In this document: positions 48,601 to 60,719 of the stretch, in pieces
Numbering within the stretch: the first letter of the stretch is position 1
How the letters are laid out: each line of letters begins with the position of its first letter
Source of the DNA: Clostridia bacterium
GTDB taxonomy: Bacteria; Bacillota; Clostridia; UMGS1883
Assembly (NCBI GenBank): GCA_051866635.1
Contig: JBJDXJ010000009.1
Location: 1 to 64,000 of the forward strand
Length of the DNA stretch: 64,000 nucleotides
Reading direction: 5' to 3'
Notes under the pieces: model-generated
Database searches by the model: none
What the model saw: the letters and a program-made list of their open reading frames with translations, nothing else
Told to the model about the DNA's origin: nothing
Program-made: the position numbers and the translations under genes

Positions 48601-51600
48601 GTGACGACCTTCTTAACTGGTCCGAGCAGAGAATGGTAAAAGTTTCTGACGAGAATATGGGTTGTACATGGGCACCTGAGGCAATATATGACGAAGAAAA
48701 CAAGAACTACCTTGTTTACTGGTCCTCCCACCGTGCAGATTTGGGAGGTAAGAAGGTTGTGCAGTGTGCCACAACACGTGACTTTGTAACATTTACCGAG
48801 CCTGAAATATTTGTTGGCGGTGACGGCGAAATCAGTGTTATCGACACAACAATGATAAAGGGCGACGACGGAAAATACTACCGCTTCACAAAGTATGCTG
48901 ACAAAGTAAGAGTATTTATGGAAGTGTCTGATTCTCCCACGGGACCTTTTACTGAGGTAAGTAGCAATGTTTATGATATTTATGGTGTTGAAGGACCTGA
49001 AATATTCAAATTGGAAGGCACAGATAAGTATTGCCTGATGCTAGACAGCTACACAGGCGATCTTGGTGCAATCGGATTTTTCCCCATGGTGACAGATGAT
49101 TTATCAAGTGGCAATTTTACACGCTTGACAGAAGGCTATAAAATGCCCACAGGTGCAAAGCACGGCGGCATACTCGCAATAACTGAGGATGAATACGCAT
49201 CTATCATGAAAAAGTGGGGACCACTTCCCGATGATGAAAATGTTATTGAATATAAATTTGACGGAAGCGATGAAAACCTTACACTTTACGGCAATGCAAA
49301 GTTAGAGGGTGGTACCCTTGTACTTGACGGAACAAGCTCTACATACGCAAACCTTGGAAAAGGTATTTTTGACAGACGTGAAAAATTCACTGTTTCAATG
49401 GACTTGTACAATGAAACAGAATCGGGATTTTTCTTTACCTTCTCCATAGGCGATACAACAAGCGACTATCTGTTCCTTCGTACAAGAAAGGAGCAGGTGC
49501 GTCTTGCACAGACAATATCCGGAAATACATACGAAGAAGCTGTCAATGTAGCGGTTTCAGATAATGTAAACAAATGGAGTAATTATACAATTGTAGGTGA
49601 CGGAGAAACATTAAAGCTTTATATTGACGGGGTTCTCTCAGGTGAAGCGAATACAACAAAAACATTGTATCACTTGGGCGAAAACCTTAGTGTAAACTTG
49701 GGTAAATCCACATTCTCAGCGGATAAATATTTTAAAGGTAAATTTGAAAATGTGAAGATTTTCAACCGTGCACTGACAAAAGCGGAGGTTATAGCATTAT
49801 TAGGTGATGCAGAAAAGCATCTTGAATACGATTACGACAATTTATCAATACTCAATCAGGACGAAATCACATGTGATTTGATGCTTCCTTCTGAAGGTGA
49901 AAGAAGCGGTTGTGAAATAACATGGAAATCCTCAGATACAAGCGTTATTACAGATGCCGGTATTGTAAATAGGTTTGACACAGACAAAAAGGTTACAATG
50001 ACGGGAACCTTAACTCTTGGTGAAACTGTACTTGAAAAGAAATTTGATGTAACAGTTCTTGCAAAAGAAGAAGATTATGCATATCTCTTTGCATATTTCA
50101 CAGGAAGTGCGGCAAGTCAAGAGAGGCTTTTCTACGGCGTTTCAAAGGACGGCTACAACTTCCGTGCGTTAAACGGCGGAAACAGCGTTTTAACAAGCGA
50201 CCTGGGCACAGGCTGTATCCGTGACCCCTTTATCATGAAGGGCGAGGACGGCTATTACTATATCATAGCAACGGATATGAAGTCCTCCTTAGGTTGGTCC
50301 AGTAACTACGCAACAGTTGTGTTTAAAACTCCCGACCTTATAAACATTGTTGATAAAGAATGGATTAATTACCGTAATTTTAAAGCAACTGCAAACTGTA
50401 CACGTGCGTGGGCACCCCAGGCTATATGGTGCCCCGAAAAAGAGGCATATATGGTATATCTCACAATGGAAATGCCCGACGACGATTACCCAACAGTAAT
50501 GTTCCGTCATTACGCAACTGATTTGTGCGACGCAAGTACATATACAGAACCCACTCTTATGCTAAATCGCCCTGAAAACATAAACTCTGCAATTGACGGT
50601 GATATTATTTACGATAAGTTCCACGATGAATATATTATGTTCTACAACGGTAAACAGCTTGCGGTAAGTAAAACCTTAAGCGGAGAATGGACACATGCAA
50701 AAACGAAGTATTCCGACGGTCAGCTCCCCATGGTTACATCGACCGGAGCCTCCATGGCTGTTGAGGGCAGCAATATATGGCAGATTATAGGTCGTGATAA
50801 GTGGGTAATTGCCGCAGACGGCACAGCGTTCAACGGCGGCTGTTACGCACTTGTTGAAACAGAGGACTTTGAAAACTATACTCAGCTTTGGGCAAGTCGC
50901 GGCGATTACTCCTTCGACTTTACACCACGCCACGGCTATGTAATACCCATAAGCGAAAGAGAGTTAAATAATCTGTTTACGGCTTACGGAACCGTGGAAT
51001 TTCCCGAAGATAAAGCATTTGACCTTAATATCGACCTTTCACAAAAAGGCGTTGATATAAACGAGGATATGTACGGAATTTTCTACGAGGATATTAACTA
51101 TGGTGCAGACGGCGGATTGTACAGCGAAGTTATTGAAAACCGTTCCTTTGAAGCGGCACATTGTAACCCTGATAAGGGAGAAGCTTATACAAAGATTCCT
51201 TCATCAGGCTGGACAGTTACAAACGCTACGGCAGAATATCTCTCAGAAAACCCCTTGAACGAAAATAACACGACATATGTCCGTCTTACAACGCAAAATG
51301 GTTCCACCTTAAGTAACGAATGTTACTCGGGCTTTAAAGCAAGTGACGGTGAAATTTTTGACGTAAGTTTCTTTGCTCGTGGAAACTACACGGGAAAAAT
51401 CACAGTTTCAATTGTAGAGGGCGAAAATGTTTTAGGAAGTAAGGAATTTACTATTAACAGCACTGAATTTAAGAAGTATTCAGGCACATTACAGGTAAAG
51501 GGCGAATCTGCTACCGCTACAGTCAAACTTAGCTTTGATAAAGAAGGCACAATTGACATGGATATGATTTCCGTAATTACACAAAACACCTTTAACGGTC

Positions 51601-53870
51601 GTAATAACGGATTAAGACGTGATATTGTTCAAGCCCTTTACGATTTACATCCTAAGTTTATGCGTTTCCCCGGTGGCTGTGTTGTGGAAGGTTACTACCT
51701 TGACAACCGCTACAAATGGAAGGAGTCTATCGGTCCTGTAGAAGAAAGAAAGGAAAACTGGAACCGTTGGCAGACAGGCAGTAACGCTTACGACTACTGC
51801 CAGACTTTAGGTCTTGGTTTTTACGAATATTTCCTCCTTTGCGAAGACATAGGTGCAAAGCCACTTCCCGTAGTAAGCGTGGGCATTGGTTGCCAGTATC
51901 AGTCAGGTGAAGTATCAAGCTGGGACGACTTGTACAATATCTATATTCAGGATGCAATTGACCTTATTGAATTTGCAAACGGCGACCCCAAAACAAATAA
52001 GTGGGCGGCTATCCGTGCCGAAATGGGTCATGAAGAACCCTTTAACCTTGAATACTTAGGAATAGGTAACGAACAGTGGTATACAGACGCTAACCGCTTC
52101 TTTGAGCGTTATGAAGCATTTGAAGAAGAAATCCACAAACTGTATCCCGATATTAAATTAATTTCCACATCAGGTCCTTCAGCAGACGGAACGCATTACG
52201 ATAACGCCTGGAACTGGCTTAAATCCCATAACGGTGAAGAAAACTTCACATATGCGGTAGATGAACATTATTACCGCACACCCGAATGGTTCCTTGATAA
52301 TGTTAACCGATACGACTCCTACGACAGAGAAGGTTTTGGCGTGTTTGCAGGTGAATATGCGGCAAACGGCACTTATGGCAACACTCTTTATTCAGCCATT
52401 GCCGAAGCGGCATATATGACAGGTTTAGAAAAAAATGCCGACATTGTAAAACTTGCTTCCTATGCACCGCTTCTGGCAAAGGAAGGCTTTACACAGTGGT
52501 CCCCTAATCTTATATGGTTTGACAATACTACAGTTTATGGTTCACCTGACTATTATGTACAGAAAATGTACTCCGAAAATAACGGTTCGTATACTGTGAA
52601 AAATGAAGTTAGTGTCCATGGAGAGGAAAAGGTGTATAAAGCAGGTGTAGGTACATGGTCAACTGCCGCACAGTTTAAGGATATTACAGTTACAGACGAC
52701 AAAACAAATGAAACTACCAAGCTTGTACTTGGGGAAACAACCCTTGGTACATGGACAGAAGACGAGGGCGTTTACTCCCAGACAAGCACAAGTGCAAACG
52801 GTGCATTTAATATTGCACCTGTTACTAAAAACGGATATACACTTAGCCTTAAGGCTATGAAAACAGGCGGTAATGAAGGCTTCCTTATTCCCATAAAGTA
52901 TGTTGACAATAATAACTACATTTTCTGGAATATTGCAGGCTGGGGCAACACACAAAGTGCTGTTCAGAAAGTAGACAACGGAACAAAAACAAATATTACA
53001 TCATATGTACCTATAGTTGTTGAAACAAATACATGGTATGATGTTTCCGTAAAGGTTACGGAAGATACTATGTACTGCTACTTAAACGGAGAGCTTATTC
53101 AGTCGGCATTTATTAATAAAACGGAAGGCCCCGTTTACAGCAGTGTTTCAGTTGACGAAAAATCAGGGGATATTATCGTAAAGCTTGTAAATTCTTCCGA
53201 AACAAAGGCAGATGTTAACGTAAAAATTGAAAATGCAGAATATATTGCACCCCTCTGCGACGAATATGTTCTTACAGGCAATGCAAAGGGTGACAGAAAC
53301 TCACTTGCAAATCCTGAAAATGTGCGGGAGGTTAAGGGAATATTTACAGGTGCCTCCGATAACTTTACATACGAAATGACAGGCTTAAGCTTTGTAGTTT
53401 TAAGGCTTCATACAACAGAAAGTTATGTTACAGAAGTTACCTCTGTTACTGTAAATAACCCTGAAAACCTTCCCGAAAATGTATTGGTTACACTTTCTGA
53501 CGGTTCAAAGGAAGAAAGGAAGGTAACATGGCAGAAGGGCAGTGAGGGTGCATACTGTTACGGCGGTTCATATACCGTTGAAGGTGATGTTGAACAAAGT
53601 AATGTTAAAGCTATTGCCACACTTAACATTCCCACACACGGTATGGTAGAATTTACAGGTGATAATACTGCACATGTTTACACAAGGGAAAATACTACTG
53701 TACGAATTGCGGTATACAATGATGAGGGAGCACTCATAAGCATAGAAACAAAGAAAATTGACGGCGAAGAGGACATTGTATTTACAGCACCTGAAAGCGG
53801 CAAGGTAAAGATTATGCTTTGGAGTGAAAATATTACCCCCATGGAGAAAACTTTTGAAAAAGTATATTAA
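45624..53870 (+). CDS. Giant secreted multi-catalytic glycoside hydrolase (three GH43/clan GH-F-like modules, LamG, Ig-like domains, GH51 alpha-L-arabinofuranosidase)
   Basis: Signal peptide. Three propeller motif sets: ADP...WAPE...DEGP, RDP...WAPE...IDT...EGPE and RDP...WAPQ...IDG...EG. GH51 motifs FYEDINYGADGGLY, RFPGGC, GIGNEQW, GEYAA, SYAPLL. Confidence 0.82.
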   Translation: MKKLTALLLVLAMTLTFMPVISLGTETTQTAESISAFSWNFETNAQNGTLPTVVSWGNYRAAFMSFEIPEEILSYKDETVIINATLSANMTFNNGRVSGQAPFVTIVEADGDAIASADMGGGSDTTNTLKAAWAEGKVLGTIDTLKEDVSTVMDITEIVKGGKTKIGLYLTCRSEDGYLKTNGIVNFNSPSLEITVTKVDEDYYLNSLNIPYNISEGYILPKSIGGMDIVWSESEIKAEGETVYKKLTASINNKTKDFDVMIMGENDKFIAAYTTEDSVAVGNSMHLAIKTETGWEELNFGIGVLFASADLSDETSAGTTKVLEKPYIYRKDNGKIGVSARCMKLDGTKDEFLTLWETDDLVHFETVGTAENVDGYETVDRVEVEGINGTVSSVFPITDSEYEYLTKKLMEVKNTSVEPIILSTVPGKAISKLPSLTANYSDTSKGEIPVKWNEEELNAIDFNKTGIYTVTGQAQVADYPSPMFYGEADPVIYNYNGKYYFIATNETGSQLDLYIRCADTIDELETAEEVLIFKHTSSGDHSGCNWAPELHVINGELYCLFASSTTGSWNAVQSRIMKCTGDPMNINDWEAPVMVTRKDGSSLIDEGITLDMTYFESKGKHYYAWAERPITSQGNGNSYIAIAEMDPSDPYRITTDPVIIRIPEYGWDRRTTTVDEGPHVLKHEGKIYMSFSGSGCDNTYCLGYLIADEDADLLNKDSWRVTNYPVLASEHVAGEYGPGHNAFAKDEYGRDIIIVHMKPNGGTRSGTVRTIHYGFDGTPILYMTADRYLKSEYRNVTATIYVRDEDVTDEEFELESIVNNLTIHNADNIKEHITLPTEIDGATILWSSDNSAVTNDGVVTRGNEDVRVNLTALVSKNGLTKEKVFTVTIKAKRETHDKVGYIYAYFRGSVNGEKEVQQIHLAISDDGLNWRDLNGNFPVIESKMGTKGLRDPYLIRSYEGDKFYLLATDLDANGGDWTQYGENGSRYLMIWESDDLLNWSEQRMVKVSDENMGCTWAPEAIYDEENKNYLVYWSSHRADLGGKKVVQCATTRDFVTFTEPEIFVGGDGEISVIDTTMIKGDDGKYYRFTKYADKVRVFMEVSDSPTGPFTEVSSNVYDIYGVEGPEIFKLEGTDKYCLMLDSYTGDLGAIGFFPMVTDDLSSGNFTRLTEGYKMPTGAKHGGILAITEDEYASIMKKWGPLPDDENVIEYKFDGSDENLTLYGNAKLEGGTLVLDGTSSTYANLGKGIFDRREKFTVSMDLYNETESGFFFTFSIGDTTSDYLFLRTRKEQVRLAQTISGNTYEEAVNVAVSDNVNKWSNYTIVGDGETLKLYIDGVLSGEANTTKTLYHLGENLSVNLGKSTFSADKYFKGKFENVKIFNRALTKAEVIALLGDAEKHLEYDYDNLSILNQDEITCDLMLPSEGERSGCEITWKSSDTSVITDAGIVNRFDTDKKVTMTGTLTLGETVLEKKFDVTVLAKEEDYAYLFAYFTGSAASQERLFYGVSKDGYNFRALNGGNSVLTSDLGTGCIRDPFIMKGEDGYYYIIATDMKSSLGWSSNYATVVFKTPDLINIVDKEWINYRNFKATANCTRAWAPQAIWCPEKEAYMVYLTMEMPDDDYPTVMFRHYATDLCDASTYTEPTLMLNRPENINSAIDGDIIYDKFHDEYIMFYNGKQLAVSKTLSGEWTHAKTKYSDGQLPMVTSTGASMAVEGSNIWQIIGRDKWVIAADGTAFNGGCYALVETEDFENYTQLWASRGDYSFDFTPRHGYVIPISERELNNLFTAYGTVEFPEDKAFDLNIDLSQKGVDINEDMYGIFYEDINYGADGGLYSEVIENRSFEAAHCNPDKGEAYTKIPSSGWTVTNATAEYLSENPLNENNTTYVRLTTQNGSTLSNECYSGFKASDGEIFDVSFFARGNYTGKITVSIVEGENVLGSKEFTINSTEFKKYSGTLQVKGESATATVKLSFDKEGTIDMDMISVITQNTFNGRNNGLRRDIVQALYDLHPKFMRFPGGCVVEGYYLDNRYKWKESIGPVEERKENWNRWQTGSNAYDYCQTLGLGFYEYFLLCEDIGAKPLPVVSVGIGCQYQSGEVSSWDDLYNIYIQDAIDLIEFANGDPKTNKWAAIRAEMGHEEPFNLEYLGIGNEQWYTDANRFFERYEAFEEEIHKLYPDIKLISTSGPSADGTHYDNAWNWLKSHNGEENFTYAVDEHYYRTPEWFLDNVNRYDSYDREGFGVFAGEYAANGTYGNTLYSAIAEAAYMTGLEKNADIVKLASYAPLLAKEGFTQWSPNLIWFDNTTVYGSPDYYVQKMYSENNGSYTVKNEVSVHGEEKVYKAGVGTWSTAAQFKDITVTDDKTNETTKLVLGETTLGTWTEDEGVYSQTSTSANGAFNIAPVTKNGYTLSLKAMKTGGNEGFLIPIKYVDNNNYIFWNIAGWGNTQSAVQKVDNGTKTNITSYVPIVVETNTWYDVSVKVTEDTMYCYLNGELIQSAFINKTEGPVYSSVSVDEKSGDIIVKLVNSSETKADVNVKIENAEYIAPLCDEYVLTGNAKGDRNSLANPENVREVKGIFTGASDNFTYEMTGLSFVVLRLHTTESYVTEVTSVTVNNPENLPENVLVTLSDGSKEERKVTWQKGSEGAYCYGGSYTVEGDVEQSNVKAIATLNIPTHGMVEFTGDNTAHVYTRENTTVRIAVYNDEGALISIETKKIDGEEDIVFTAPESGKVKIMLWSENITPMEKTFEKVY

Positions 53871-53914: not shown

Positions 53915-53970
53915 GGTATATTCATATTTGAAAACACTTATTTACTCAATTTATGAGAAGTCATAAAAAT

Positions 53971-54011
53971 GTCTTGATTATTATAGCGCACTGCGCTATA
54001 ATAATCAAGAC
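53971..54011. promoter_or_regulatory. Perfect 41-bp palindrome forming a SigA-type promoter on both strands, containing two GCGC sites
   Basis: GTCTTGATTATTATAGCGCA-C-TGCGCTATAATAATCAAGAC. TTGATT (53974-53979), 17 bp, TATAAT (53997-54002). GCGC at 53986-53989 and 53993-53996. Confidence 0.8.
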
Positions 54012-54033
54012 GAAAACCTTTGGAGGAACTATT

Positions 54034-55014
54034 ATGATTAATATAGAAAACAAGTATTTTGATGGAATGACATTTATTGATTTATTTGCTGGATTGGGTG
54101 GGTTTAGATTGGCATTAGAATCATTAGGTGCAAAATGTGTTTATTCAAATGAGTGGAATATTCCTGTACAGGAAGTGTATTATGATAACTTTGGTGATAT
54201 TCCCGAGGGCGATATAACAAAGGTCGATGAAAAAACGATACCTAATCATGATATTTTATGTGCGGGGTTTCCGTGTCAAGCCTTCTCTATAAGTGGAAAG
54301 CAGAGAGGTTTTGAAGATAGTAGAGGTACTTTGTTTTTTGATGTTGCCCGTATTGTTAAAGAAAAAAAGCCAAAAATTGTATTTATGGAAAATGTCAAGA
54401 ATTTTGCCACACATGATGGTGGAAAAACATTAGAGGTTGTAAAAGCCACAATGGAAGAATTAGGCTATGTCTTCAAACAAAAAGTGTTAAATTCAGTTGA
54501 TTATGGAGTTCCGCAAAAAAGGGAAAGAATATACATGGTATGTTTTAGAAAAGATGTGAAAATTAATAATTTTTCTTTTCCGAAGGCAATTAAACTTACT
54601 AAGCATGTTGAGGATTTTTTATTAGAGGATACATCTTTAACTGAACATCTGTTTGTAGATAGACCTGATACTTATTACAGTGGTATAGAGGACAATGTCT
54701 ATAGTGAAAAATCAATTAGGTTAGGAACTGTAAATAAAGGTGGACAGGGAGAAAGAATATATAGTACTAAAGGTATAGCTATAACATTTTCAGCATACGG
54801 TGGTGGTGTTTTTGCAAAAACAGGCGGTTATTTGGTGGATGGTAGACCCAGAAGATTACATCCAAGAGAATGTGCCAGATTAATGGGATATCCCGATACT
54901 TACAAAATTAGTAAAAAAGTAAATCAAGCGTATCAGCAGTTTGGAAATTCTGTAGTTGTAGATGTCCTTCAATACATTGGAATAGAAGTGGGAAAAGCCC
55001 TAAAGGATGATTGA
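54034..55014 (+). CDS. C5-cytosine DNA methyltransferase, M.HhaI-like (predicted GCGC)
   Basis: FIDLFAGLGGFRLALES, AGFPCQAFSISGKQ, MENV, PQKRER, QFGNSV. TRD KGGQGERIYST...SAYGGGVFAKTGGY matches my recollection of M.HhaI. Start ATG 54034 with GGAGG. Confidence 0.9.
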   Translation: MINIENKYFDGMTFIDLFAGLGGFRLALESLGAKCVYSNEWNIPVQEVYYDNFGDIPEGDITKVDEKTIPNHDILCAGFPCQAFSISGKQRGFEDSRGTLFFDVARIVKEKKPKIVFMENVKNFATHDGGKTLEVVKATMEELGYVFKQKVLNSVDYGVPQKRERIYMVCFRKDVKINNFSFPKAIKLTKHVEDFLLEDTSLTEHLFVDRPDTYYSGIEDNVYSEKSIRLGTVNKGGQGERIYSTKGIAITFSAYGGGVFAKTGGYLVDGRPRRLHPRECARLMGYPDTYKISKKVNQAYQQFGNSVVVDVLQYIGIEVGKALKDD

Positions 55015-55309
55015 AATGAATGAAGTGGAATTTAGAAATTGGTTGTTAAAAAATAGTGGTTCTAAAAAAGTTCAAAGTGATATTGTTTCCAGAATTAAAA
55101 AAATAGAACGAGAAATAGAAAACTGCGATATTGATGAACAATATCGCAGGGATAGATGTGAATACTTAATGTCATTATTTATAAACATGGGAATCAACAA
55201 TGAGATGGATAAATATCCTAATGCCAATTTTCCTATTGGAGCGTATTATATGAGCACATTTCGATATGCAATAAAACAATATGTACAATTTTGTGATGAA
55301 TGTTATTAA
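55007..55309 (+). CDS. Hypothetical 100-aa helical protein coupled to the methyltransferase
   Basis: Overlaps the MTase 3' end and the endonuclease stop. No family recognised with confidence. Confidence 0.6.
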   Translation: MIEMNEVEFRNWLLKNSGSKKVQSDIVSRIKKIEREIENCDIDEQYRRDRCEYLMSLFINMGINNEMDKYPNANFPIGAYYMSTFRYAIKQYVQFCDECY

Positions 55310-56100
55310 TCATTATATAGTTCTGCTTCGAATTTTCTTAAATCGTTAATATCTTGCGACTTAATCAATTTGATAGAAAATATAACATTCATTTTATATG
55401 TGTTGGACAACTTTCTGACTTCATATTCATTTTGTGTTCGTTTGGAGAGAAGAAATGTAAAATTACCTAAACCAAATTTGTCTGTTATTAAGGCATCTGT
55501 TATCTTGACATAGAGTTTTTTGCCTTCGTGAGCATACGTAGCAGATGGATACAAACGGCTAATTGTGTTTTTGACAATAGGCATATCCTTTATTGCCGGC
55601 ACTCCTGAACCACTTTTCTTAATGCGATAAGTGGCATTAATTCGAAAATATTGATTAAATTTGTGTATGGGCAGTATAACATAATCTCGACCACGGCTAA
55701 TAACATATTTTACATTTTTACTTATGTAGTGACCAATAATCCAATCGGCGAAGACGTTGGCATCAATGTCTAATGATTGTCCGGCAGTTCCTGCATTATT
55801 GAAACGATGAAAATCGTTGTTCATATACTGAATCATAATTGCGGTCATTTCGTTTGGTTTACTATGGTTTTTTGGGGAAAACACAAATATTTGTGATTTT
55901 TCATCGGGATTAAGGACAAATTGTCCGGATTGAGCGGTAGAATCTTTAACTTCAATATAAAAATCTGTTATCCCGTTTTTGAGAACTGCGATATCAGATT
56001 TCGTAGAATCCATACCTCCTTCTAAATGGAATATTGCGTTAGGGTATGTTCGTTTTAAATATTCATAACAATCATTTTCAAATTTCTCGCCCGGTTTCAT
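55306..56100 (-). CDS. Type II restriction endonuclease, R.HhaI-like (PD-(D/E)XK)
   Basis: FE..C..YL, DST.SDI, FYIEVK...Q.GQFVL, YRIKKSGS and LSNT...NVIFSI match my recollection of R.HhaI. Confidence 0.75.
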   Translation of the reverse strand: MKPGEKFENDCYEYLKRTYPNAIFHLEGGMDSTKSDIAVLKNGITDFYIEVKDSTAQSGQFVLNPDEKSQIFVFSPKNHSKPNEMTAIMIQYMNNDFHRFNNAGTAGQSLDIDANVFADWIIGHYISKNVKYVISRGRDYVILPIHKFNQYFRINATYRIKKSGSGVPAIKDMPIVKNTISRLYPSATYAHEGKKLYVKITDALITDKFGLGNFTFLLSKRTQNEYEVRKLSNTYKMNVIFSIKLIKSQDINDLRKFEAELYND

Positions 56101-57077
56101 TGGTTACCTCCTGTGATTTTTAAAAAATCAATAATACTTTTTCCTAAAGCTTTGATTACGGTTACTGTCATTGCATTTCCTGCTTGCATTAATAAATGTC
56201 TATCCGTAACTTTATTCTTAACTTTGTCAGCATATTCTTTGGGAAATCCTTGCAACAGCAATGCTTCATATCCTGTTAATTGGTGTATAATACCATCTCT
56301 AACATAGAGTACACCGTCTCTTTGAGCTCGTAAAGTGGGACACTTATCTTTATATATACGCAAGTCGTTCATGCGTGTATCAATTATTCTTCCCTCCATA
56401 GATTTTATATCATCTATTGTGTATTTTCCCATATTAACAGGATTTTTTAAATAATAGTTCAATATATTCAAGCGACTATCATCTGCAGTATGATTGTCAA
56501 TTAAAAAATCTGATAACAATGGGGGTTCAATTTCTTTAGGCCACTCAAATTTAGAATAATCTAATTTGAGTGATTTTTTAAATCCAATAAAATACACTCG
56601 TTGTCGCATTTGAGGCACACCGTAGTTAAGACTTGTCAGTACTCGATAAGAGGTGTCATATCCAACGGAGTTTAATTCCTCTAAAATTGTTTTTATTGTT
56701 TTACCGCCATCGTGAGTTACCAAGCCTTTAACATTCTCTAATATGAAACACATAGGTTGTGCTTCCTTAAGTATTCTTGACAATTGAAAAATAATTTGAC
56801 CTCTATCATCTGAAAACCCTTCCTGCCTTCCGATAACCGAAAAAGTTTGACAAGGGAAGCCTGCTATAAGTAGATCAAATGCAGGAATTCTATCCGCTGT
56901 AATTCTTTTTAGATTTCCATAGTTCAGTTCGTTCTCAGTATTGTGCATGAGACGATAAGTTGTGTCGGCTAATCTACTTGTTTCTGAACGCCCAACGCAT
57001 TTAAGACCAGCTTTTTCTAAACCTAATCTACCTCCGCCGATTCCTGAACAGAAATCGAAAAAAGTGTTAATTGTCAT
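56097..57077 (-). CDS. Second C5-cytosine DNA methyltransferase, M.Hpy99III-like (predicted GCGC)
   Basis: DFCSGIGGGRLGLE, GFPCQ, LENVKG, QMRQR, QAGNAM. TRD DTRMNDLRIY...PTLR resembles the H. pylori GCGC MTase as I recall it. Start ATG 57077 with GAGG. Confidence 0.82.
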   Translation of the reverse strand: MTINTFFDFCSGIGGGRLGLEKAGLKCVGRSETSRLADTTYRLMHNTENELNYGNLKRITADRIPAFDLLIAGFPCQTFSVIGRQEGFSDDRGQIIFQLSRILKEAQPMCFILENVKGLVTHDGGKTIKTILEELNSVGYDTSYRVLTSLNYGVPQMRQRVYFIGFKKSLKLDYSKFEWPKEIEPPLLSDFLIDNHTADDSRLNILNYYLKNPVNMGKYTIDDIKSMEGRIIDTRMNDLRIYKDKCPTLRAQRDGVLYVRDGIIHQLTGYEALLLQGFPKEYADKVKNKVTDRHLLMQAGNAMTVTVIKALGKSIIDFLKITGGNQ

Positions 57078-57294
57078 TATTTTTATCCTCATTTATAAAA
57101 AGTTTATATGTGTCAATTTCAAGTGCATCTGCTATCCTTTGTATGTTCTCCAGTGAAATACTTCGTCTACAACACTCTACTGCACTAATATATGTACGGT
57201 GTAACTCACATTTTTCAGCAAATGCTTCTTGAGAAAGCCCTATTTGTGTGCGATATTTCTTTACATTTTGTGCAAACACTTTTAAAATATCCAT
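57067..57294 (-). CDS. XRE-family HTH controller (C) protein
   Basis: NVKKYR...GLSQEAFAEKCELHRTYISAVE...SLENIQRIADAL. First gene of the C-M-R operon. Confidence 0.85.
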   Translation of the reverse strand: MDILKVFAQNVKKYRTQIGLSQEAFAEKCELHRTYISAVECCRRSISLENIQRIADALEIDTYKLFINEDKNNDN

Positions 57295-57317: not shown

Positions 57318-57359
57318 ATTATACAGTTTTGAACACAAAAAGTCTACATACAATAAGTA
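57318..57359 (-). promoter_or_regulatory. C-box pair overlapping a SigA promoter
   Basis: Minus strand TACTTATTGTA-TGTA-GACTTTTTGTG (11-4-11 layout of PvuII-type C-boxes). TAGACT, 17 bp, TATAAT. Confidence 0.65.
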
Positions 57360-57544
57360 TCTTTGGTAAATGGTTAATATTGAGTTACACACTAATATAT
57401 GTCATAATACCGGTATATGGATGGTGTGGTAGATAGGTGACGCATGTCTTCTTTTCATTTCGGTATATTTCTACTTAAAAACGGGACTTTTGTTTTATTG
57501 TGTAAGAAATACCATGTTGATATAATTTTGTTGAGGTGTTCAGC

Positions 57545-59236
57545 ATGGAATTGATTTTTTTGGAAAGTTTATACAAAGAAAAGCTGTGGGGCAGTGAAAC
57601 ATGGCTTATCAGTGCACATAAAAACGGAGAGACAAAAATACAATCGGGGGAATATAAAGGGAAATTTTTAAGCGAGGTTTATAATAATTTTCCCCTTTTA
57701 GTCAAGATAATTGACGCTAAGGACGATTTAAGTATACAGGTTCATCCAAATGATGAATATGCAAAAAAATATGAAAATTCAAAGGGAAAAACCGAATGTT
57801 GGTATGTACTTGATTGCAAAGAAGATGCAAGTCTTATTATAGGTCATAACGCAAAGGATAAGACGGAGCTTACAAGTATGATACAAAAAGGGGAGTGGAA
57901 CTCACTCCTAAGGGAAGTCAAGATTAAAAAAGGGGACTTTTTTCAGATTGAACCGGGCACAATCCATGCAATAAAAGGGGGAGTAAAAATACTTGAAATA
58001 CAAGAGTCCAGCGATATTACATACCGCCTTTACGATTATGACCGCCTTGAGAATGGAAAACCCAGAGAGCTTCACACAAAAGAAAGTATAGAAAACATAA
58101 CATGCCCCTTTGAAGAAAAGGTTTGCAGGAAGTTTTCAGGTGAACTTGTGTCGTGTATGTACTATACCGTTGAAAAAATAAATGTGGCAGGGAATAAAAT
58201 TTTAAAATCAAAAAATCAACCTGTTATTGTAAGTTGTATAGAGGGCGAAGGATATGCTGACGATGAGAAAATCCAGTTTGGTACAAGTTTTATAATACCG
58301 CCTTTTCATGAAACAACTATGCAGGGCGATATGGAAATTATCCTAAGCTATGAAAAAAGAGAAAATGTAAAAATTGGTATTGACCTTGGCGGTACAAATA
58401 TTGCCGTGGGATTAGTTGACCGCTTTGGTAGATTAATTGATAAAATATCAAGCCCCACAAAAAGTGAAAGAGGGATAGATGCCATAGTAAGTGACATTGT
58501 GCTCCTTTGTAACACTATCGCAGAGAAAAATAATCTTTCAATGAAAGATATTGTTTCTGTTGGAATAGGGTGCCCCGGAACAATAGATGCGGAAGGTGGC
58601 GTTGTTGTATATTCAAATAATATAAGGATGGACAACGTACCTTTAAGGGATATGCTTGAAGAAAAGCTCAAGGTGAAGGTTAACATTGAAAACGATGCAA
58701 ATGCCGCCGCTTTCGGAGAATATATAACAAATTTCAAAGATGCAAAAAGTTTTGTGCTTATGACCCTTGGCACAGGTGTAGGAAGCGGACTTGTGATAGA
58801 CGGAAAGCTTTACCGTGGCTTTAACGGTGCGGGATTTGAGTGCGGACATATGATAATCCACCCAAATGGCGAAAAATGCACCTGTGGCAATTTAGGTTGC
58901 CTTGAAGCATACGCATCGGCAAGTGCATTGAAAAAGCGTGGAGAAGACAGTTGCGAAAACATATTTGCCCTTGCACATAATGGCAACGATAAATACCAAA
59001 GGGTGCTTGATGATTACATAACCGATTTAAGCATCGGTGTAGGCAATGTGATTAATATTATCCAGCCTGAGGTTCTGGCAATAGGTGGCGGAGTCAGTAA
59101 CGCAGGAGATGAACTTTTAAACCCCTTAAAAGAAAAGGTAAAAGATATGGATTTTAATAAACACCTTAGTAAAACCGAGATAGTTACTGCAAAACTGAAA
59201 AACGATGCAGGAATTATAGGTGCGGCATTAATTTAA
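57545..59236 (+). CDS. Fusion of type I mannose-6-phosphate isomerase and ROK-family sugar kinase
   Basis: PMI half: FPLLVKIIDAKDDLSIQVHP, GKTECWY, GTIHA, EIQESSDITYRLYDY. ROK half: GIDLGGT, ENDANAAA, TLGTGVG, GH...CTCG...GCLE, IGGG. Confidence 0.88.
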   Translation: MELIFLESLYKEKLWGSETWLISAHKNGETKIQSGEYKGKFLSEVYNNFPLLVKIIDAKDDLSIQVHPNDEYAKKYENSKGKTECWYVLDCKEDASLIIGHNAKDKTELTSMIQKGEWNSLLREVKIKKGDFFQIEPGTIHAIKGGVKILEIQESSDITYRLYDYDRLENGKPRELHTKESIENITCPFEEKVCRKFSGELVSCMYYTVEKINVAGNKILKSKNQPVIVSCIEGEGYADDEKIQFGTSFIIPPFHETTMQGDMEIILSYEKRENVKIGIDLGGTNIAVGLVDRFGRLIDKISSPTKSERGIDAIVSDIVLLCNTIAEKNNLSMKDIVSVGIGCPGTIDAEGGVVVYSNNIRMDNVPLRDMLEEKLKVKVNIENDANAAAFGEYITNFKDAKSFVLMTLGTGVGSGLVIDGKLYRGFNGAGFECGHMIIHPNGEKCTCGNLGCLEAYASASALKKRGEDSCENIFALAHNGNDKYQRVLDDYITDLSIGVGNVINIIQPEVLAIGGGVSNAGDELLNPLKEKVKDMDFNKHLSKTEIVTAKLKNDAGIIGAALI

Positions 59237-59360: not shown

Positions 59361-60719
59361 CTATTCAAAACTAATATTATCCGTGTAATCACCGATTAAA
59401 ATGTTTTCTTTAATATCCCGACCGTGTTCGGTTACATTTTTAAATTTGATGTTATAAACTTTTCTTTCCTCATCATACCCCGATATACGTGAGGGCATTT
59501 CCCCGTAACCTGAATATGTAATGTTTTCAAAGTTTATATCGTGTATGGCTTTGCCCGGGATGGGGTTATAGGTAGAATTGTGACAAACCCTTAAATCAAT
59601 AAGCCGTCCACGTTGATATTGCTCCACACGTATATTTTTGTAGGAAATATTTCTTGCGGTATTACCGTCGCCAACATTTATTGCAAGAACACCTGTATAA
59701 TCATCCTGCGGCTCGTGGTGGTTTAACACATCGATATTTTCAAATGTAATATCTTCGATTGTATCTCCGCCTTTTTCGTGGTTTCCGTGGCATCCTATTG
59801 TTGTGGGATGGGCAACATCTGCCCAAAGGGTGGAATTTTTCACTGTAATATTTCGGCTGTCACCGTAAAAGGACCATCTGCTTCCGTAGATTGCAATGCA
59901 GTCGTCGCTGTTTCGCATAAAAACAGAGTCAATTACAATGTTTTCACTGCTCATAATATCAATTCCGTCGCTCCATCCCTGGCAACTGAAACTCTTTATG
60001 TCCTTGATATTTACATTTTTACTTCCTCCTACACCAATGCTGTAATGGGGAGGATTGACAATTGAAATGCCTTCTATATCCACGTTAGAGCAGTGTGATA
60101 TGTTTATGCCATGAAAACAACTGAAATGTGGGTACTGATGCAGATTTATCATTCCGTTGCCGTAAATTTTCACATTTGAAACATTTACACAGTCAATGCT
60201 TCCCACTAAAACAGCACCGCCGCAAATGTATAAAGAGGAATTGTTTTTCATCTTTAGTGAACAACCGCCTATAAAATGCACACCCGGCAAAAGAATTGCA
60301 GAGTTATTTTCAATTGAAATTTCATCCCCATGAATACCGGGGGCAATCAGATTTCCGGAGGGACGTGAAATGGGCTTTTGGGCAAAGATATGCAGATTAT
60401 GATAAATGTCGTCATTTATTTCAACTGAAATGTTTACGGGCCTATCCAGCTTGAATTTTATTTTTCTCTGCTCGTAGTCAAAATTTATATTAAGGCTTTC
60501 GGGACGGATTTTGTAACGCCATGCATAACTTAAAGGGCATTCAATTTCAATTTCCGTTTCATCTTCAAAATCAAATGCTACCATTGAGGCACTTTGCACA
60601 GAGTGCATATCAACATACACTCTGTGCACAAAGGCTTCCTCTCCGTTTATGCGTACTATAAAATCCCGACTTTCATCATTGAAATTACTGTCACAGCAAT
60701 ATTTAGGGTAAATGCTCAT
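59361..60719 (-). CDS. GH28-like pectin-lyase-fold glycoside hydrolase
   Basis: NVKIYGNG, WSDGIDI, RNSDDCIAI and beta-helix repeats. No obvious signal peptide. Confidence 0.72.
   Translation of the reverse strand: MSIYPKYCCDSNFNDESRDFIVRINGEEAFVHRVYVDMHSVQSASMVAFDFEDETEIEIECPLSYAWRYKIRPESLNINFDYEQRKIKFKLDRPVNISVEINDDIYHNLHIFAQKPISRPSGNLIAPGIHGDEISIENNSAILLPGVHFIGGCSLKMKNNSSLYICGGAVLVGSIDCVNVSNVKIYGNGMINLHQYPHFSCFHGINISHCSNVDIEGISIVNPPHYSIGVGGSKNVNIKDIKSFSCQGWSDGIDIMSSENIVIDSVFMRNSDDCIAIYGSRWSFYGDSRNITVKNSTLWADVAHPTTIGCHGNHEKGGDTIEDITFENIDVLNHHEPQDDYTGVLAINVGDGNTARNISYKNIRVEQYQRGRLIDLRVCHNSTYNPIPGKAIHDINFENITYSGYGEMPSRISGYDEERKVYNIKFKNVTEHGRDIKENILIGDYTDNISFE

What the first reader, a model, noticed from the sequence alone, without database searches (positions are those of the whole stretch)
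53971..54011. Perfect palindromic promoter carrying the methyltransferase's own predicted target sites
Seen: 20-bp arms with a 1-bp centre. TTGATT-17bp-TATAAT is present on both strands because of the symmetry. Two GCGC sites lie in the spacer, each abutting a -10 box, and the palindrome ends 22 bp before the M1 start. Known precedent: methylation of a cognate site in the promoter regulates some R-M systems (CfrBI, LlaDII). Inference: a methylation-sensing feedback switch, possibly using cruciform extrusion, mutually exclusive overlapping RNA polymerase sites, or a dimeric regulator such as ORF100. The minus-strand promoter fires toward the upstream terminator hairpin and could yield a short RNA.
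Basis: partly seen in the sequence, partly recalled or inferred. Interest (0 to 1): 0.8.

Follow-up and report, generated by a model that had tools for sequence, protein, structure and literature searches.

The report
Methylation-sensing promoter of an HhaI-type methyltransferase
The palindrome is the promoter of a GCGC-methylating enzyme gene and holds the only two GCGC sites in 64 kb; related systems keep this site pair only when a small unknown neighbouring gene is present, which points to a self-sensing methylation switch.

Summary
53971-54011 is a perfect 20+1+20 palindrome with TTGATT-17-TATAAT on both strands. It carries the only two GCGC sites in the window (about 69 expected). It lies 22 nt upstream of a full-length M.HhaI homologue (M1). 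M1 is followed by an unannotated 97-aa gene (ORF100). A C-M2-R operon converges on it, and its R is an R.HhaI homologue.

In 79 related loci plus the window, what is conserved is the forward promoter TTGaca-17-TATAAT with GCGC-N3-GCGC in the spacer, not the long palindrome. The pair is present in 52 of 57 loci with intact ORF100 and in 0 of 22 without it. At least nine ORF100-less loci keep a recognisable promoter remnant whose sites have decayed. Of 12 one-step decays, 10 are at the HhaI-methylated cytosine (GTGC or GCAC).

I read it as a methylation-state sensor of the M1-ORF100 operon, of the AhdI/LlaDII/CfrBI kind, functionally tied to ORF100 and probably repressive. The sign is unproven, because H. 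pylori promoters with GCGC at -13 are activated by methylation. Cruciform, reverse promoter and short RNA are not conserved.

The parts
53971..54011 (.). Perfect 20+1+20 palindrome that contains the M1-ORF100 promoter
   Evidence: As single-stranded DNA the hairpin folds at -19.8 kcal/mol, z -9.7.
53974..53979 (+). -35 hexamer TTGATT of the forward promoter
   Evidence: TTGa at this position is kept in the 49 unique related promoters.
53986..53989 (.). Left GCGC site, about -23 to -20 in the spacer
   Evidence: Invariant in the 49 unique promoters that have the pair.
53993..53996 (.). Right GCGC site, about -16 to -13, abutting the -10 hexamer (extended -10 position)
   Evidence: Same geometry as the H. 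pylori GCGC-at--13 promoters (PMC8706393).
53997..54002 (+). -10 hexamer TATAAT of the forward promoter. The start site inferred from spacing is about 54009-54010.
   Evidence: The start site is inferred, not mapped.
53980..54008 (-). Mirror-image promoter: TTGATT 54008-54003 and TATAAT 53985-53980
   Evidence: Present in the window. The reverse -35 is missing in most relatives.
54034..55014 (+). M1, a C5 cytosine methyltransferase of 326 aa, an M.HhaI homologue (predicted G-m5C-GC)
   Evidence: PF00145 at 5e-97. PDB 10mh and other M.HhaI entries at E 3.5e-154 over residues 1-323.
55016..55309 (+). ORF100, 97 aa from the family-consensus start MNEVEF (100 aa if read from 55007). Unannotated family, placed right after M1.
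   Evidence: No Pfam, NCBIfam or convincing PDB sequence match. Homologues follow M1 in 57 of 80. It co-occurs with the GCGC pair.
55306..56100 (-). R, a 264-aa homologue of the R.HhaI endonuclease. Its stop codon overlaps the ORF100 stop codon.
   Evidence: PDB 6uke at E 1.1e-41 over residues 6-249. The residues aligned to D34, E46 and K48 are kept (my reading; residue names from PMC7026639).
56097..57077 (-). M2, a second C5 methyltransferase with a different target-recognition region, co-transcribed with R. The ORF is open from 57092; homologues start at 57077.
   Evidence: PF00145 at 2e-69. Against M.HhaI only the catalytic core aligns well. The database copy is 326 aa.
57067..57294 (-). 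C, a controller-type helix-turn-helix protein of 75 aa
   Evidence: HTH_3. Best PDB matches are C.BclI 2e-12, C.AhdI 4e-9 and C.Esp1396I 1.5e-6.
57331..57361 (-). C-box-like repeats overlapping the C-M2-R promoter (TAGACT-17-TATAAT, 57346-57318)
   Evidence: ACTTATTGTATGTAGACTTATAGT-like sequence is kept upstream of C in L002, L004, L009, L033, L045 and L072. It contains no GCGC.

Best explanation
The palindrome is the sigma-70-type promoter of a two-gene operon, M1 (an M.HhaI-type G-m5C-GC methyltransferase) followed by ORF100. The functional core is not the 41-bp symmetry. It is two GCGC sites with fixed spacing (GCGC-N3-GCGC) in the 17-bp spacer, the right one touching the -10 hexamer.

Proposed working:
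1. On unmethylated DNA, as in a new host, the near-consensus promoter fires and makes M1 and ORF100.
2. M1, and possibly M2, methylates the genome and also these two sites.
3. The methylated pair then lowers transcription of the operon, with ORF100 acting as reader or co-repressor at the pair.
4. The convergent, C-protein-controlled M2-R operon takes over maintenance and restriction.

Shown:
- the anatomy;
- the enzyme families;
- conservation of the pair;
- its dependence on ORF100;
- a decay pattern typical of methylated cytosine.

Inferred:
- that methylation changes transcription;
- that the change is repression;
- that ORF100 binds the pair.
For: 1. Target identity. M1 matches M.HhaI at E 3.5e-154 over its full length, with the stretches KGGQGERIYST and SAYGGG-FAKTGGYLV kept. 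That these are the recognition loops is recalled, not from a call. R is an R.HhaI homologue.
2. Avoidance. The two sites are the only GCGC in 64 kb, O/E 0.03. In 14 of 53 promoters with the pair, it is the only GCGC in the whole stretch held.
3. Conservation. GCGCNNNGCGC occurs exactly once in each of 52 of the 80 related loci, always at about -30 to -55 from the M1 start (two at -100 and -70), and nowhere else in them. The consensus of 49 unique promoters is TTGaaaaTTatAGCGCa.TGCGCTATAATt. All eight GCGC columns are invariant, while the 3-nt spacer and the flanks vary. Hosts span Clostridia, Bacteroidales, Pasteurellaceae, Treponema, Victivallaceae, Saccharibacteria and Akkermansia.
4. Link to ORF100. 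Of 80 genomes (79 loci plus the window): pair and ORF100 together 52; ORF100 with one site left 5; neither 22; pair without ORF100 0; one unscorable (L015, ORF100 cut by the contig end).
5. Promoter remnants. With the GCGC columns masked, a promoter matrix finds remnants above the 95% null at the right place in 9 of 22 ORF100-less or ORF100-broken loci. L012 was added by eye. Each has different substitutions in the sites. L039 and L040 carry truncated ORF100 genes and have lost both sites.
6. Methylation in vivo. All 12 sites that are one change away from GCGC changed by a transition. Ten are GTGC or GCAC, the product of deamination of the HhaI-methylated cytosine. Binomial p is 0.019 against transitions at either C.
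7. Direction. Among ORF100+ loci with a known M2 state, the pair is complete in 40 of 42 with M2 and in 5 of 8 without M2 (Fisher p 0.024, not corrected for relatedness). No ORF100-less locus has M2 (0 of 22; 3 of these unknown because the contig ends). This fits a switch that can silence M1 because M2 remains.
8. Precedent. AhdI has the same layout: a strong M promoter attenuated by methylation of its own site at the -10 element, and a convergent C-R unit (PMC2275141, abstract and passages). The 2025 review lists CfrBI, AhdI and LlaDII under regulation by promoter methylation (PMC12707154, section 10 passages).
9. ORF100 as a module. Its profile finds 354 cluster representatives. Six of the 150 listed are 238-504 aa with the ORF100-like part at the N-terminus. 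One of these six, P0469, carries GmrSD_N/DUF262 (Pfam 2.6e-19; PADLOC NsnA 7e-102). This is the position that DNA-targeting domains usually hold in such nucleases.
Against: - No experiment here shows any effect of methylation on this promoter.
- The closest tested geometry, GCGC with its 3' end at -13 in H. pylori, gives activation by methylation in 3 of 6 reporters (2- to 7-fold) and a small opposite effect in one (PMC8706393, abstract, sections 3.1 and 4). The sign could therefore be the opposite.
- ORF100 has no recognised DNA-binding domain.
- The window's ORF100 is acidic, pI 5.5; the family median is 8.5.
- The language-model lead to FliZ/Phage_int_SAM scored 0.90 with 160 shared features and was not confirmed: hhalign against E. 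coli FliZ gives probability 1.5%.
- Five of the six long relatives have no recognised second domain.
- The co-occurrence counts ignore relatedness. On well-supported branches of the M1 tree only 3 independent contrasts exist (sign test p 0.25). The estimate of 10 changes of ORF100 state rests on a quick tree with many weak branches.
- Five ORF100+ loci live with a single site.
Confidence: 0.5

Rival explanations
1. Methylation acts directly on RNA polymerase, and ORF100 is the regulated cargo, not the reader. Its dose, for example as an activator or inhibitor of the M2-R unit, is what the methylation sensor sets.
For: Direct effects of promoter methylation on RNA polymerase are documented for AhdI: about 50% less transcription from a methylated template in vitro (PMC2275141). 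They are also reported for CfrBI (review PMC12707154). The co-occurrence of pair and ORF100 fits cargo as well as reader. The ORF100 and R stop codons overlap, so the two operons collide with no terminator between them. The window's ORF100 is acidic.
Against: The left GCGC site, about -23 to -20, has no known polymerase contact yet is as invariant as the right one. A T four bases before it is also invariant. That suggests a factor reading both sites. Relatives of ORF100 sit at the N-terminus of larger proteins, one of them a DUF262/NsnA nuclease-family protein, which fits a targeting domain better than a dedicated partner of R.HhaI.
Confidence: 0.2
2. Positive feedback. G-m5C-GC next to the -10 hexamer mimics the TG of an extended -10 element and strengthens the promoter. 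M1-ORF100 then rises only after methylation is in place.
For: In H. pylori, promoters with GCGC ending at -13 need the G-m5C-GC methyltransferase for full activity: 3 of 6 reporters fall 2- to 7-fold in the mutant (PMC8706393). The right site here has exactly that position. The authors argue that the 5-methyl group of m5C can stand in for that of thymine.
Against: This promoter already has a conserved -35 element and a 17-bp spacer, unlike H. pylori promoters, which to my recollection lack a -35. The R-M precedents (AhdI, CfrBI, LlaDII) are all described as regulation by promoter methylation that lowers M transcription. The pair tends to be lost where M2 is absent (5 of 8 complete against 40 of 42), which is the opposite of what a needed activator site would show. 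The second site is unexplained.
Confidence: 0.15
3. The symmetry itself is the functional feature: cruciform extrusion, two mutually exclusive overlapping promoters with a short minus-strand RNA, or an intrinsic terminator for antisense transcripts.
For: In the window both promoters score 10 of 12. The hairpin is very stable. On the minus strand the hairpin is followed by ATTTTTAT and is flagged terminator-like. Long perfect arms also occur in L024 (22), L077 (19), L014 (17) and L029 (15), with different outer sequences.
Against: Across 49 unique promoters, pairing of the 20 arm positions does not exceed column shuffles: 68.0% vs 67.1% paired (88 of 500 shuffles as high) and covariation 0.101 vs 0.087 (39 of 500). 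Outer arm positions are unpaired in most sequences. Many relatives have GCGCTATGCGCTATAAT, a direct rather than inverted arrangement, with no reverse -10 or -35. DNA upstream of the -35 is unrelated between loci. No Rfam family reaches threshold.
Confidence: 0.07
4. M1 itself, or the C protein, is the repressor and binds the palindrome as an operator.
For: Some C5 methyltransferases repress their own promoters (SsoII: listing and abstract starts of PMC3978073 and PMC6100179). C.Esp1396I binds the promoter of its convergent M gene (PMC2691842 abstract; passage).
Against: M1 has no extra N-terminal domain: 326 aa aligned end to end with the 327-aa M.HhaI. The C-box lies upstream of C, is unrelated in sequence and has no GCGC. 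C homologues were detected in only 10 of 79 loci, while the pair is in 52. Neither idea explains the dependence on ORF100.
Confidence: 0.05

Closest known systems
AhdI restriction-modification system (Bogdanova et al. 2008, PMC2275141; abstract and three passages read)
   Same: There are two convergent transcription units. The strong methyltransferase promoter carries the system's own recognition site at the -10 element and is attenuated by its methylation. The other unit is controlled by a C protein through C-boxes.
   Different: AhdI has Type I-like M and S subunits, probably making m6A, and one site, with a modest effect of about 50% in vitro. Here the enzyme is a C5 methyltransferase, there are two sites at fixed spacing, a second methyltransferase sits inside the C-R operon, and an extra gene (ORF100) tracks the sites.
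LlaDII (Christensen and Josephsen 2004). The paper is not held. It is cited only through reviews; the details below are recalled.
   Same: It is a C5 methyltransferase system whose M promoter carries two of its own recognition sites, and M expression falls when the methyltransferase is present (recalled). The review lists it as regulated by promoter methylation affecting only the M gene.
   Different: Its target is GCNGC and R and M are in tandem (recalled). No ORF100-like gene, second methyltransferase or C protein is known to me for it.
CfrBI (Beletskaya et al. 2000). The paper is not held. Described from the review PMC12707154, section 10, and a passage of PMC2275141.
   Same: The system's own site lies within inverted repeats in the M promoter. 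Methylation lowers RNA polymerase binding to the M promoter. A cruciform has been proposed there but not tested.
   Different: In CfrBI the site overlaps the -35 element and the overlapping divergent promoter drives R. Here nothing conserved lies on the other side, and the reverse promoter is not conserved.
H. pylori GCGC-containing promoters under M.Hpy99III/M.HpyGIII (Meng et al. 2021, PMC8706393; abstract and sections 3.1 and 4 read)
   Same: Same motif (GCGC), same modification (G-m5C-GC), and same position, with the 3' end at -13 abutting the -10 hexamer. The effect on transcription was tested.
   Different: There the methyltransferase is an orphan acting on a regulon, not on its own promoter. 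There is one site, and the effect is mostly activation.
The HhaI system of Haemophilus haemolyticus (Horton et al. 2020, PMC7026639; passages read)
   Same: M1 and R are homologues of M.HhaI and R.HhaI.
   Different: The paper describes HhaI as a simple, compact two-gene system. It does not contain the term 'second methyltransferase', 'promoter' occurs only in its reference list, and none of the 12 'gene' passages shown mentions an ORF100-like gene. The native H. haemolyticus locus was not among the 80 loci, so I could not check it.

Membership tests
R-M methyltransferase genes regulated by methylation of their own promoter (CfrBI/AhdI/LlaDII kind) | The recognition site(s) of the system's own methyltransferase lie inside the core promoter of its gene. 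| tested here: met
   Two GCGC sites lie in the 17-bp spacer, one abutting the -10. M1 is an M.HhaI homologue.
R-M methyltransferase genes regulated by methylation of their own promoter (CfrBI/AhdI/LlaDII kind) | The sites are kept by selection rather than chance. | tested here: met
   They are the only two GCGC in 64 kb. They are invariant in 49 unique promoters from many phyla while neighbouring bases vary. GCGCNNNGCGC occurs once per locus in 52 of 80 loci, always at this place.
R-M methyltransferase genes regulated by methylation of their own promoter (CfrBI/AhdI/LlaDII kind) | The sites are methylated in the cell. | tested here: inconclusive
   Only indirect evidence: 10 of 12 one-step decayed sites are GTGC or GCAC, the deamination products of the HhaI-methylated cytosine. 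No methylome data are available.
R-M methyltransferase genes regulated by methylation of their own promoter (CfrBI/AhdI/LlaDII kind) | The methylation state changes transcription from the promoter. | not testable with these tools
   This needs reporter or in vitro transcription assays.
HhaI-type (GCGC) Type II restriction-modification system | A methyltransferase homologous to M.HhaI, including the target-recognition region. | tested here: met
   E 3.5e-154, residues 1-323 aligned to 1-322 of M.HhaI.
HhaI-type (GCGC) Type II restriction-modification system | An endonuclease homologous to R.HhaI with the catalytic residues. | tested here: met
   PDB 6uke at E 1.1e-41. The residues aligned to D34, E46 and K48 are kept (my reading; residue names).
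HhaI-type (GCGC) Type II restriction-modification system | Demonstrated GCGC specificity of cutting and methylation. | not testable with these tools
   Inferred from homology and from GCGC depletion in the window.
C-protein operator (C-box) | A C-box-like sequence that co-occurs with a C gene. | tested here: not met
   The C-box is upstream of C at 57331-57361 and is unrelated in sequence. The pair is present in 52 loci, while C homologues were detected in 10.
Divergent overlapping promoter pair (as in CfrBI) | A second promoter on the other strand that is conserved and drives a gene or RNA. | tested here: not met
   It is present in the window. The reverse -35 is absent in most relatives, the upstream DNA is not conserved, and there is no gene on that side in the window.
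Structured DNA or RNA hairpin (cruciform or intrinsic terminator) | Arm pairing maintained by compensatory change. | tested here: not met
   68.0% of cells paired against 67.1% in shuffles (88 of 500); covariation 39 of 500. A T-run follows the hairpin only on the minus strand of the window.
ORF100 as a Phage_int_SAM / FliZ-like DNA-binding domain | Significant sequence or profile similarity to that domain. | tested here: not met
   No Pfam hit in 50 members, even at E up to 10. hhalign against E. coli FliZ gives probability 1.5%. Only a language-model lead of 0.90.

The most novel reading that the evidence does not exclude
ORF100 founds a family of small bacterial readers of sequence-specific 5-methylcytosine. 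It binds the G-m5C-GC pair only when methylated and thereby turns the establishment methyltransferase M1 off once the genome is protected. The same domain has been recruited as the targeting module of NsnA/GmrSD-type and other nucleases. HhaI-type systems would then be four- or five-gene devices: an establishment methyltransferase, a methyl-reader, a maintenance methyltransferase, the endonuclease, and sometimes C. They would not be the textbook two-gene pair.
Probability: 0.25. Interest if true: 0.85.

Novelty: new variant of a known kind. Interest (0 to 1): 0.62.

Why it matters
M.HhaI is the model C5 methyltransferase, and HhaI is described as a simple two-gene system. The comparison made here shows otherwise for most of its close relatives:
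- They carry a conserved promoter holding two of their own target sites.
- They carry an unannotated 100-aa gene that tracks those sites.
- They often carry a second methyltransferase co-transcribed with the endonuclease.

If the switch works as proposed, it adds a widespread, horizontally mobile example of epigenetic self-sensing through m5C. It also names a candidate bacterial m5C reader that can be tested with a few gel shifts and reporter fusions in E. coli.

The site-decay pattern is useful in its own right. It is a natural experiment in which a methylated regulatory site erodes by deamination once its partner gene is lost.

Tried and rejected
Tools and sources that were unavailable:
I waited twenty calls between tries, as told. 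So there is no fold and no Foldseek search.
- Complex prediction (ORF100 as two copies) was not available.
- The Atlas did not hold the window's ORF100. I used a stored homologue, as the tool suggested.
- The primary LlaDII and CfrBI papers are not held.
ORF100's distant relatives and the native H. haemolyticus locus therefore have no genomic context here.

Searches that found nothing useful:
- Pfam and NCBIfam find nothing for ORF100.
- PDB sequence and profile searches of ORF100 give only weak coiled-coil-like matches to proteasome Rpt3, best E 0.0018, which I treat as spurious.
- tblastn of ORF100 finds nothing in plasmids or phages.
- M1 has only matches of 49-52% identity in three plasmids.
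- Names for M2 relatives are generic, so its specificity stays unknown.
- A full-text search for M.HhaI, promoter and autoregulation found one unrelated paper.

Ideas tested and rejected:
- hhalign of ORF100 against FliZ is not significant.
- HNH-like motifs that I saw by eye in the long relatives P0474, P0478 and P0509 are not supported by Pfam at E up to 5, so I make no claim on them.
- The C protein as binder of the palindrome.
- Family-wide hairpin covariation.
- The independent-contrast test of ORF100 against the pair, limited to well-supported branches, has too few pairs: 3, p 0.25.

Full report
OBSERVATION

Positions 53971-54011 read GTCTTGATTATTATAGCGCA-C-TGCGCTATAATAATCAAGAC. This is a perfect inverted repeat with 20-nt arms and one central base.
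- Among eight inverted repeats of at least 14 nt with short loops in the whole 64-kb window, it is the only perfect one.
- About 1.4e-6 such repeats are expected by chance.
- TTGATT-17 nt-TATAAT is present on both strands, 10 of 12 to consensus. The same scan finds as many promoter-like matches in shuffled sequence (16 against 19.8 +/- 5.1), so the match alone carries little weight.
- The two GCGC sites at 53986 and 53993 are the only GCGC in the window. Between 69 and 92 are expected. GCGC is the most depleted of all tetramers, O/E 0.03.
- The palindrome ends 22 nt before the ATG at 54034, which follows GGAGG.

THE GENES AROUND IT
- M1 (54034-55014, 326 aa) is a C5 methyltransferase. It aligns end to end with M.HhaI at E 3.5e-154, including the variable region that reads GCGC.
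- ORF100 follows one base after the M1 stop. The family consensus start is at 55016, giving 97 aa. It has no Pfam, NCBIfam or convincing PDB match.
- A C-M2-R operon converges on it.
  - R (55306-56100) is a homologue of the R.HhaI endonuclease, E 1.1e-41. The residues aligned to the catalytic D34, E46 and K48 named by Horton et al. are kept (PMC7026639 passages).
  - M2 is a second C5 methyltransferase whose variable region does not align with that of M.HhaI.
  - C is a controller-type HTH protein, closest to C.BclI, C.AhdI and C.Esp1396I. It has C-box-like repeats in front of its own gene.
- The stop codons of ORF100 and R overlap, so the two operons run into each other.
- The cassette sits between carbohydrate-degrading genes of a low-GC Clostridia-like host.

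RELATED LOCI

One scan of species-representative genomes with M1 gave 369 relatives. The best 80 were kept. Their M1 identity is 73-87%, and they come from many phyla. By tblastn, most show the order M1, ORF100, then R and M2 on the other strand. In 79 of them the DNA upstream of M1 was available.

What is conserved is a forward promoter. The consensus of 49 unique sequences is TTGaaaaTTatAGCGCa.TGCGCTATAATt.
- All eight GCGC positions are invariant.
- The spacing is fixed at 3 nt.
- The spacer sequence is variable (ANT, TAT, ATA, TCT and others).
- Everything upstream of the -35 is unrelated between loci.

GCGCNNNGCGC occurs exactly once in each of 52 loci, always at this place, and never elsewhere in about 690 kb of related DNA. 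In 14 of 53 cases the pair is the only GCGC in the stretch held.

THE LONG PALINDROME IS NOT THE CONSERVED FEATURE
- Arms of 15-22 nt occur in the window, L024, L077, L014 and L029, with different outer sequences. Most loci have 12-nt arms or none.
- A whole subgroup has GCGCTATGCGCTATAAT, which is closer to a direct repeat, with no reverse -10.
- A pair-count test over the 20 arm positions gives 68.0% paired against 67.1% in shuffles (88 of 500 as high). The covariation score is 0.101 against 0.087 (39 of 500).
- On the minus strand of the window the hairpin is followed by a T-run and looks terminator-like. This depends on the long arms and is not general.

The cruciform, the reverse promoter and the short minus-strand RNA therefore remain possible for this locus, but they have no comparative support. 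Rfam finds nothing at threshold.

THE LINK TO ORF100

Among the 79 loci plus the window:
- 52 have the pair together with an intact ORF100.
- 5 have ORF100 and one remaining site.
- 22 have neither.
- None has the pair without ORF100.
- One (L015) is unscorable, because the contig ends inside ORF100.

The ORF100-less loci are scattered over the M1 tree, with at least 10 changes of state. The tree is weakly resolved, and only three contrasts lie on well-supported branches (p 0.25).

A better argument for independence comes from the remnants. With the GCGC columns masked, a promoter matrix recovers the same promoter at the same distance in 9 of the 22 ORF100-less loci, and in L012 by eye. Each carries different substitutions in the former sites. 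L039 and L040 have truncated ORF100 genes and have lost both sites.

All 12 sites that are one step away from GCGC changed by a transition. Ten are GTGC or GCAC, which is what deamination of the cytosine methylated by M.HhaI produces.

I conclude three things: the sites are methylated in vivo; they erode quickly when not selected; and selection holds them only while ORF100 is present.

DIRECTION OF THE SWITCH

This is inference.
- Precedents within R-M systems point to repression. AhdI has the same two-unit layout, and its strong M promoter is attenuated by methylation of a site at the -10 (PMC2275141, abstract and passages). The 2025 review groups CfrBI, AhdI and LlaDII under regulation by promoter methylation (PMC12707154, section 10). 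Details of LlaDII are recalled, because the paper is not held.
- The only tested case with the same motif at the same place points the other way. H. pylori promoters with GCGC ending at -13 lose 2- to 7-fold activity without the G-m5C-GC methyltransferase, in 3 of 6 reporters (PMC8706393).
- One comparative observation favours repression. No ORF100-less locus has M2. Among ORF100+ loci, the pair is complete in 40 of 42 with M2 but in only 5 of 8 without it (Fisher p 0.024, relatedness ignored). This is expected if the switch silences M1 and can be afforded only while M2 keeps the genome protected.

ORF100
- The family has 498 members at 90% clustering, all unnamed or 'hypothetical' among the 120 listed. 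It has 354 representatives at 50%.
- Most are stand-alone proteins of about 100 aa.
- Six of the 150 listed are longer, with the ORF100-like part at the N-terminus. One of them carries a GmrSD_N/DUF262 domain and matches PADLOC NsnA at 7e-102. The other five have no recognised second domain.
- A language-model search places a homologue nearest to FliZ-like proteins with an integrase SAM-like domain, at 0.90, which is only a lead. hhalign against E. coli FliZ is not significant, probability 1.5%.
- The window's ORF100 is acidic, pI 5.5; the family median is 8.5.
- Its fold could not be predicted.

ORF100 as reader of the pair is therefore my preferred reading but is not shown. ORF100 as regulated cargo is the main rival.

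VERDICT

The element is the promoter of the M1-ORF100 operon. Its two GCGC sites form a conserved, selected and in-vivo-methylated element of the kind known from AhdI, LlaDII and CfrBI.

New here:
- the fixed pair of sites;
- its wide conservation in the HhaI family;
- its dependence on an uncharacterised gene;
- the second methyltransferase.

I rate it a new variant of a known kind, of moderate to good interest.

Noticed in passing
window 56097-57092 (-); M2 homologues in L002, L004, L009, L016 and others: A second C5 methyltransferase (M2) with a different target-recognition region is co-transcribed with the R.HhaI homologue. It is present in 42 of 57 ORF100+ genomes (8 lack it, 7 unknown) and in 0 of 22 ORF100-less ones (3 unknown). 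Its specificity is unknown; database names are generic.
   Followed up: partly
proteins P0469, P0463, P0474, P0478, P0480, P0509 (no window coordinates): Distant relatives of ORF100 form the N-terminal part of proteins of 238-504 aa. P0469 continues into a GmrSD_N/DUF262 domain and matches the defence protein NsnA. The other five have no recognised second domain.
   Followed up: partly
window 55306-55309 and 55123-55149 (-): The stop codons of ORF100 (+) and R (-) overlap, leaving no intergenic terminator. A terminator-like hairpin for the R transcript lies inside the ORF100 coding sequence on the minus strand. Convergent transcription could let a strong M1 promoter interfere with R expression.
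   Followed up: no
whole window: Several palindromic tetramers are strongly avoided besides GCGC (0.03): CTAG 0.08, GATC 0.10, GGCC 0.17, CGCG 0.22, CCGG 0.38 (observed/expected). This suggests a long history of several 4-base restriction systems in this host.
   Followed up: no
window 57331-57361 (-); upstream of C in L002, L004, L009, L033, L045, L072: A conserved C-box-like sequence (ACTTATTGTATGTAGACTTATAGT type) overlaps the C-M2-R promoter.
   Followed up: partly
upstream of M2 in L017, L020, L023, L026, L053, L056, L058, L060-L063: Loci scored as lacking the window-type C protein often encode a different small protein just upstream of M2. I read it as HTH-like by eye; its translated C-terminus reads ...DVLLKICEAMDCKLEDIMETIKD. 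Most M2-R operons may therefore have some controller.
   Followed up: no
L018, L071, L010, L031, L075: Five loci with intact ORF100 keep only one GCGC site; the other is GTGC or GCAC. Three of the five lack M2.
   Followed up: partly
window 45624-53870 (+), 57536-59236 (+), 59361-60719 (-): The cassette is flanked by a 2748-aa multidomain GH43/arabinofuranosidase protein, a phosphomannose-isomerase-ROK fusion and a GH28 enzyme. The DNA next to the M1 promoter differs in every related locus, as expected for a mobile cassette whose left edge is the -35 element.
   Followed up: no
window 53953-55014 (+): The longest ORF for M1 starts at 53953, upstream of the palindrome. An automatic annotation using it would hide the promoter inside a coding sequence. 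Homologues and the ribosome-binding site place the start at 54034.
   Followed up: yes
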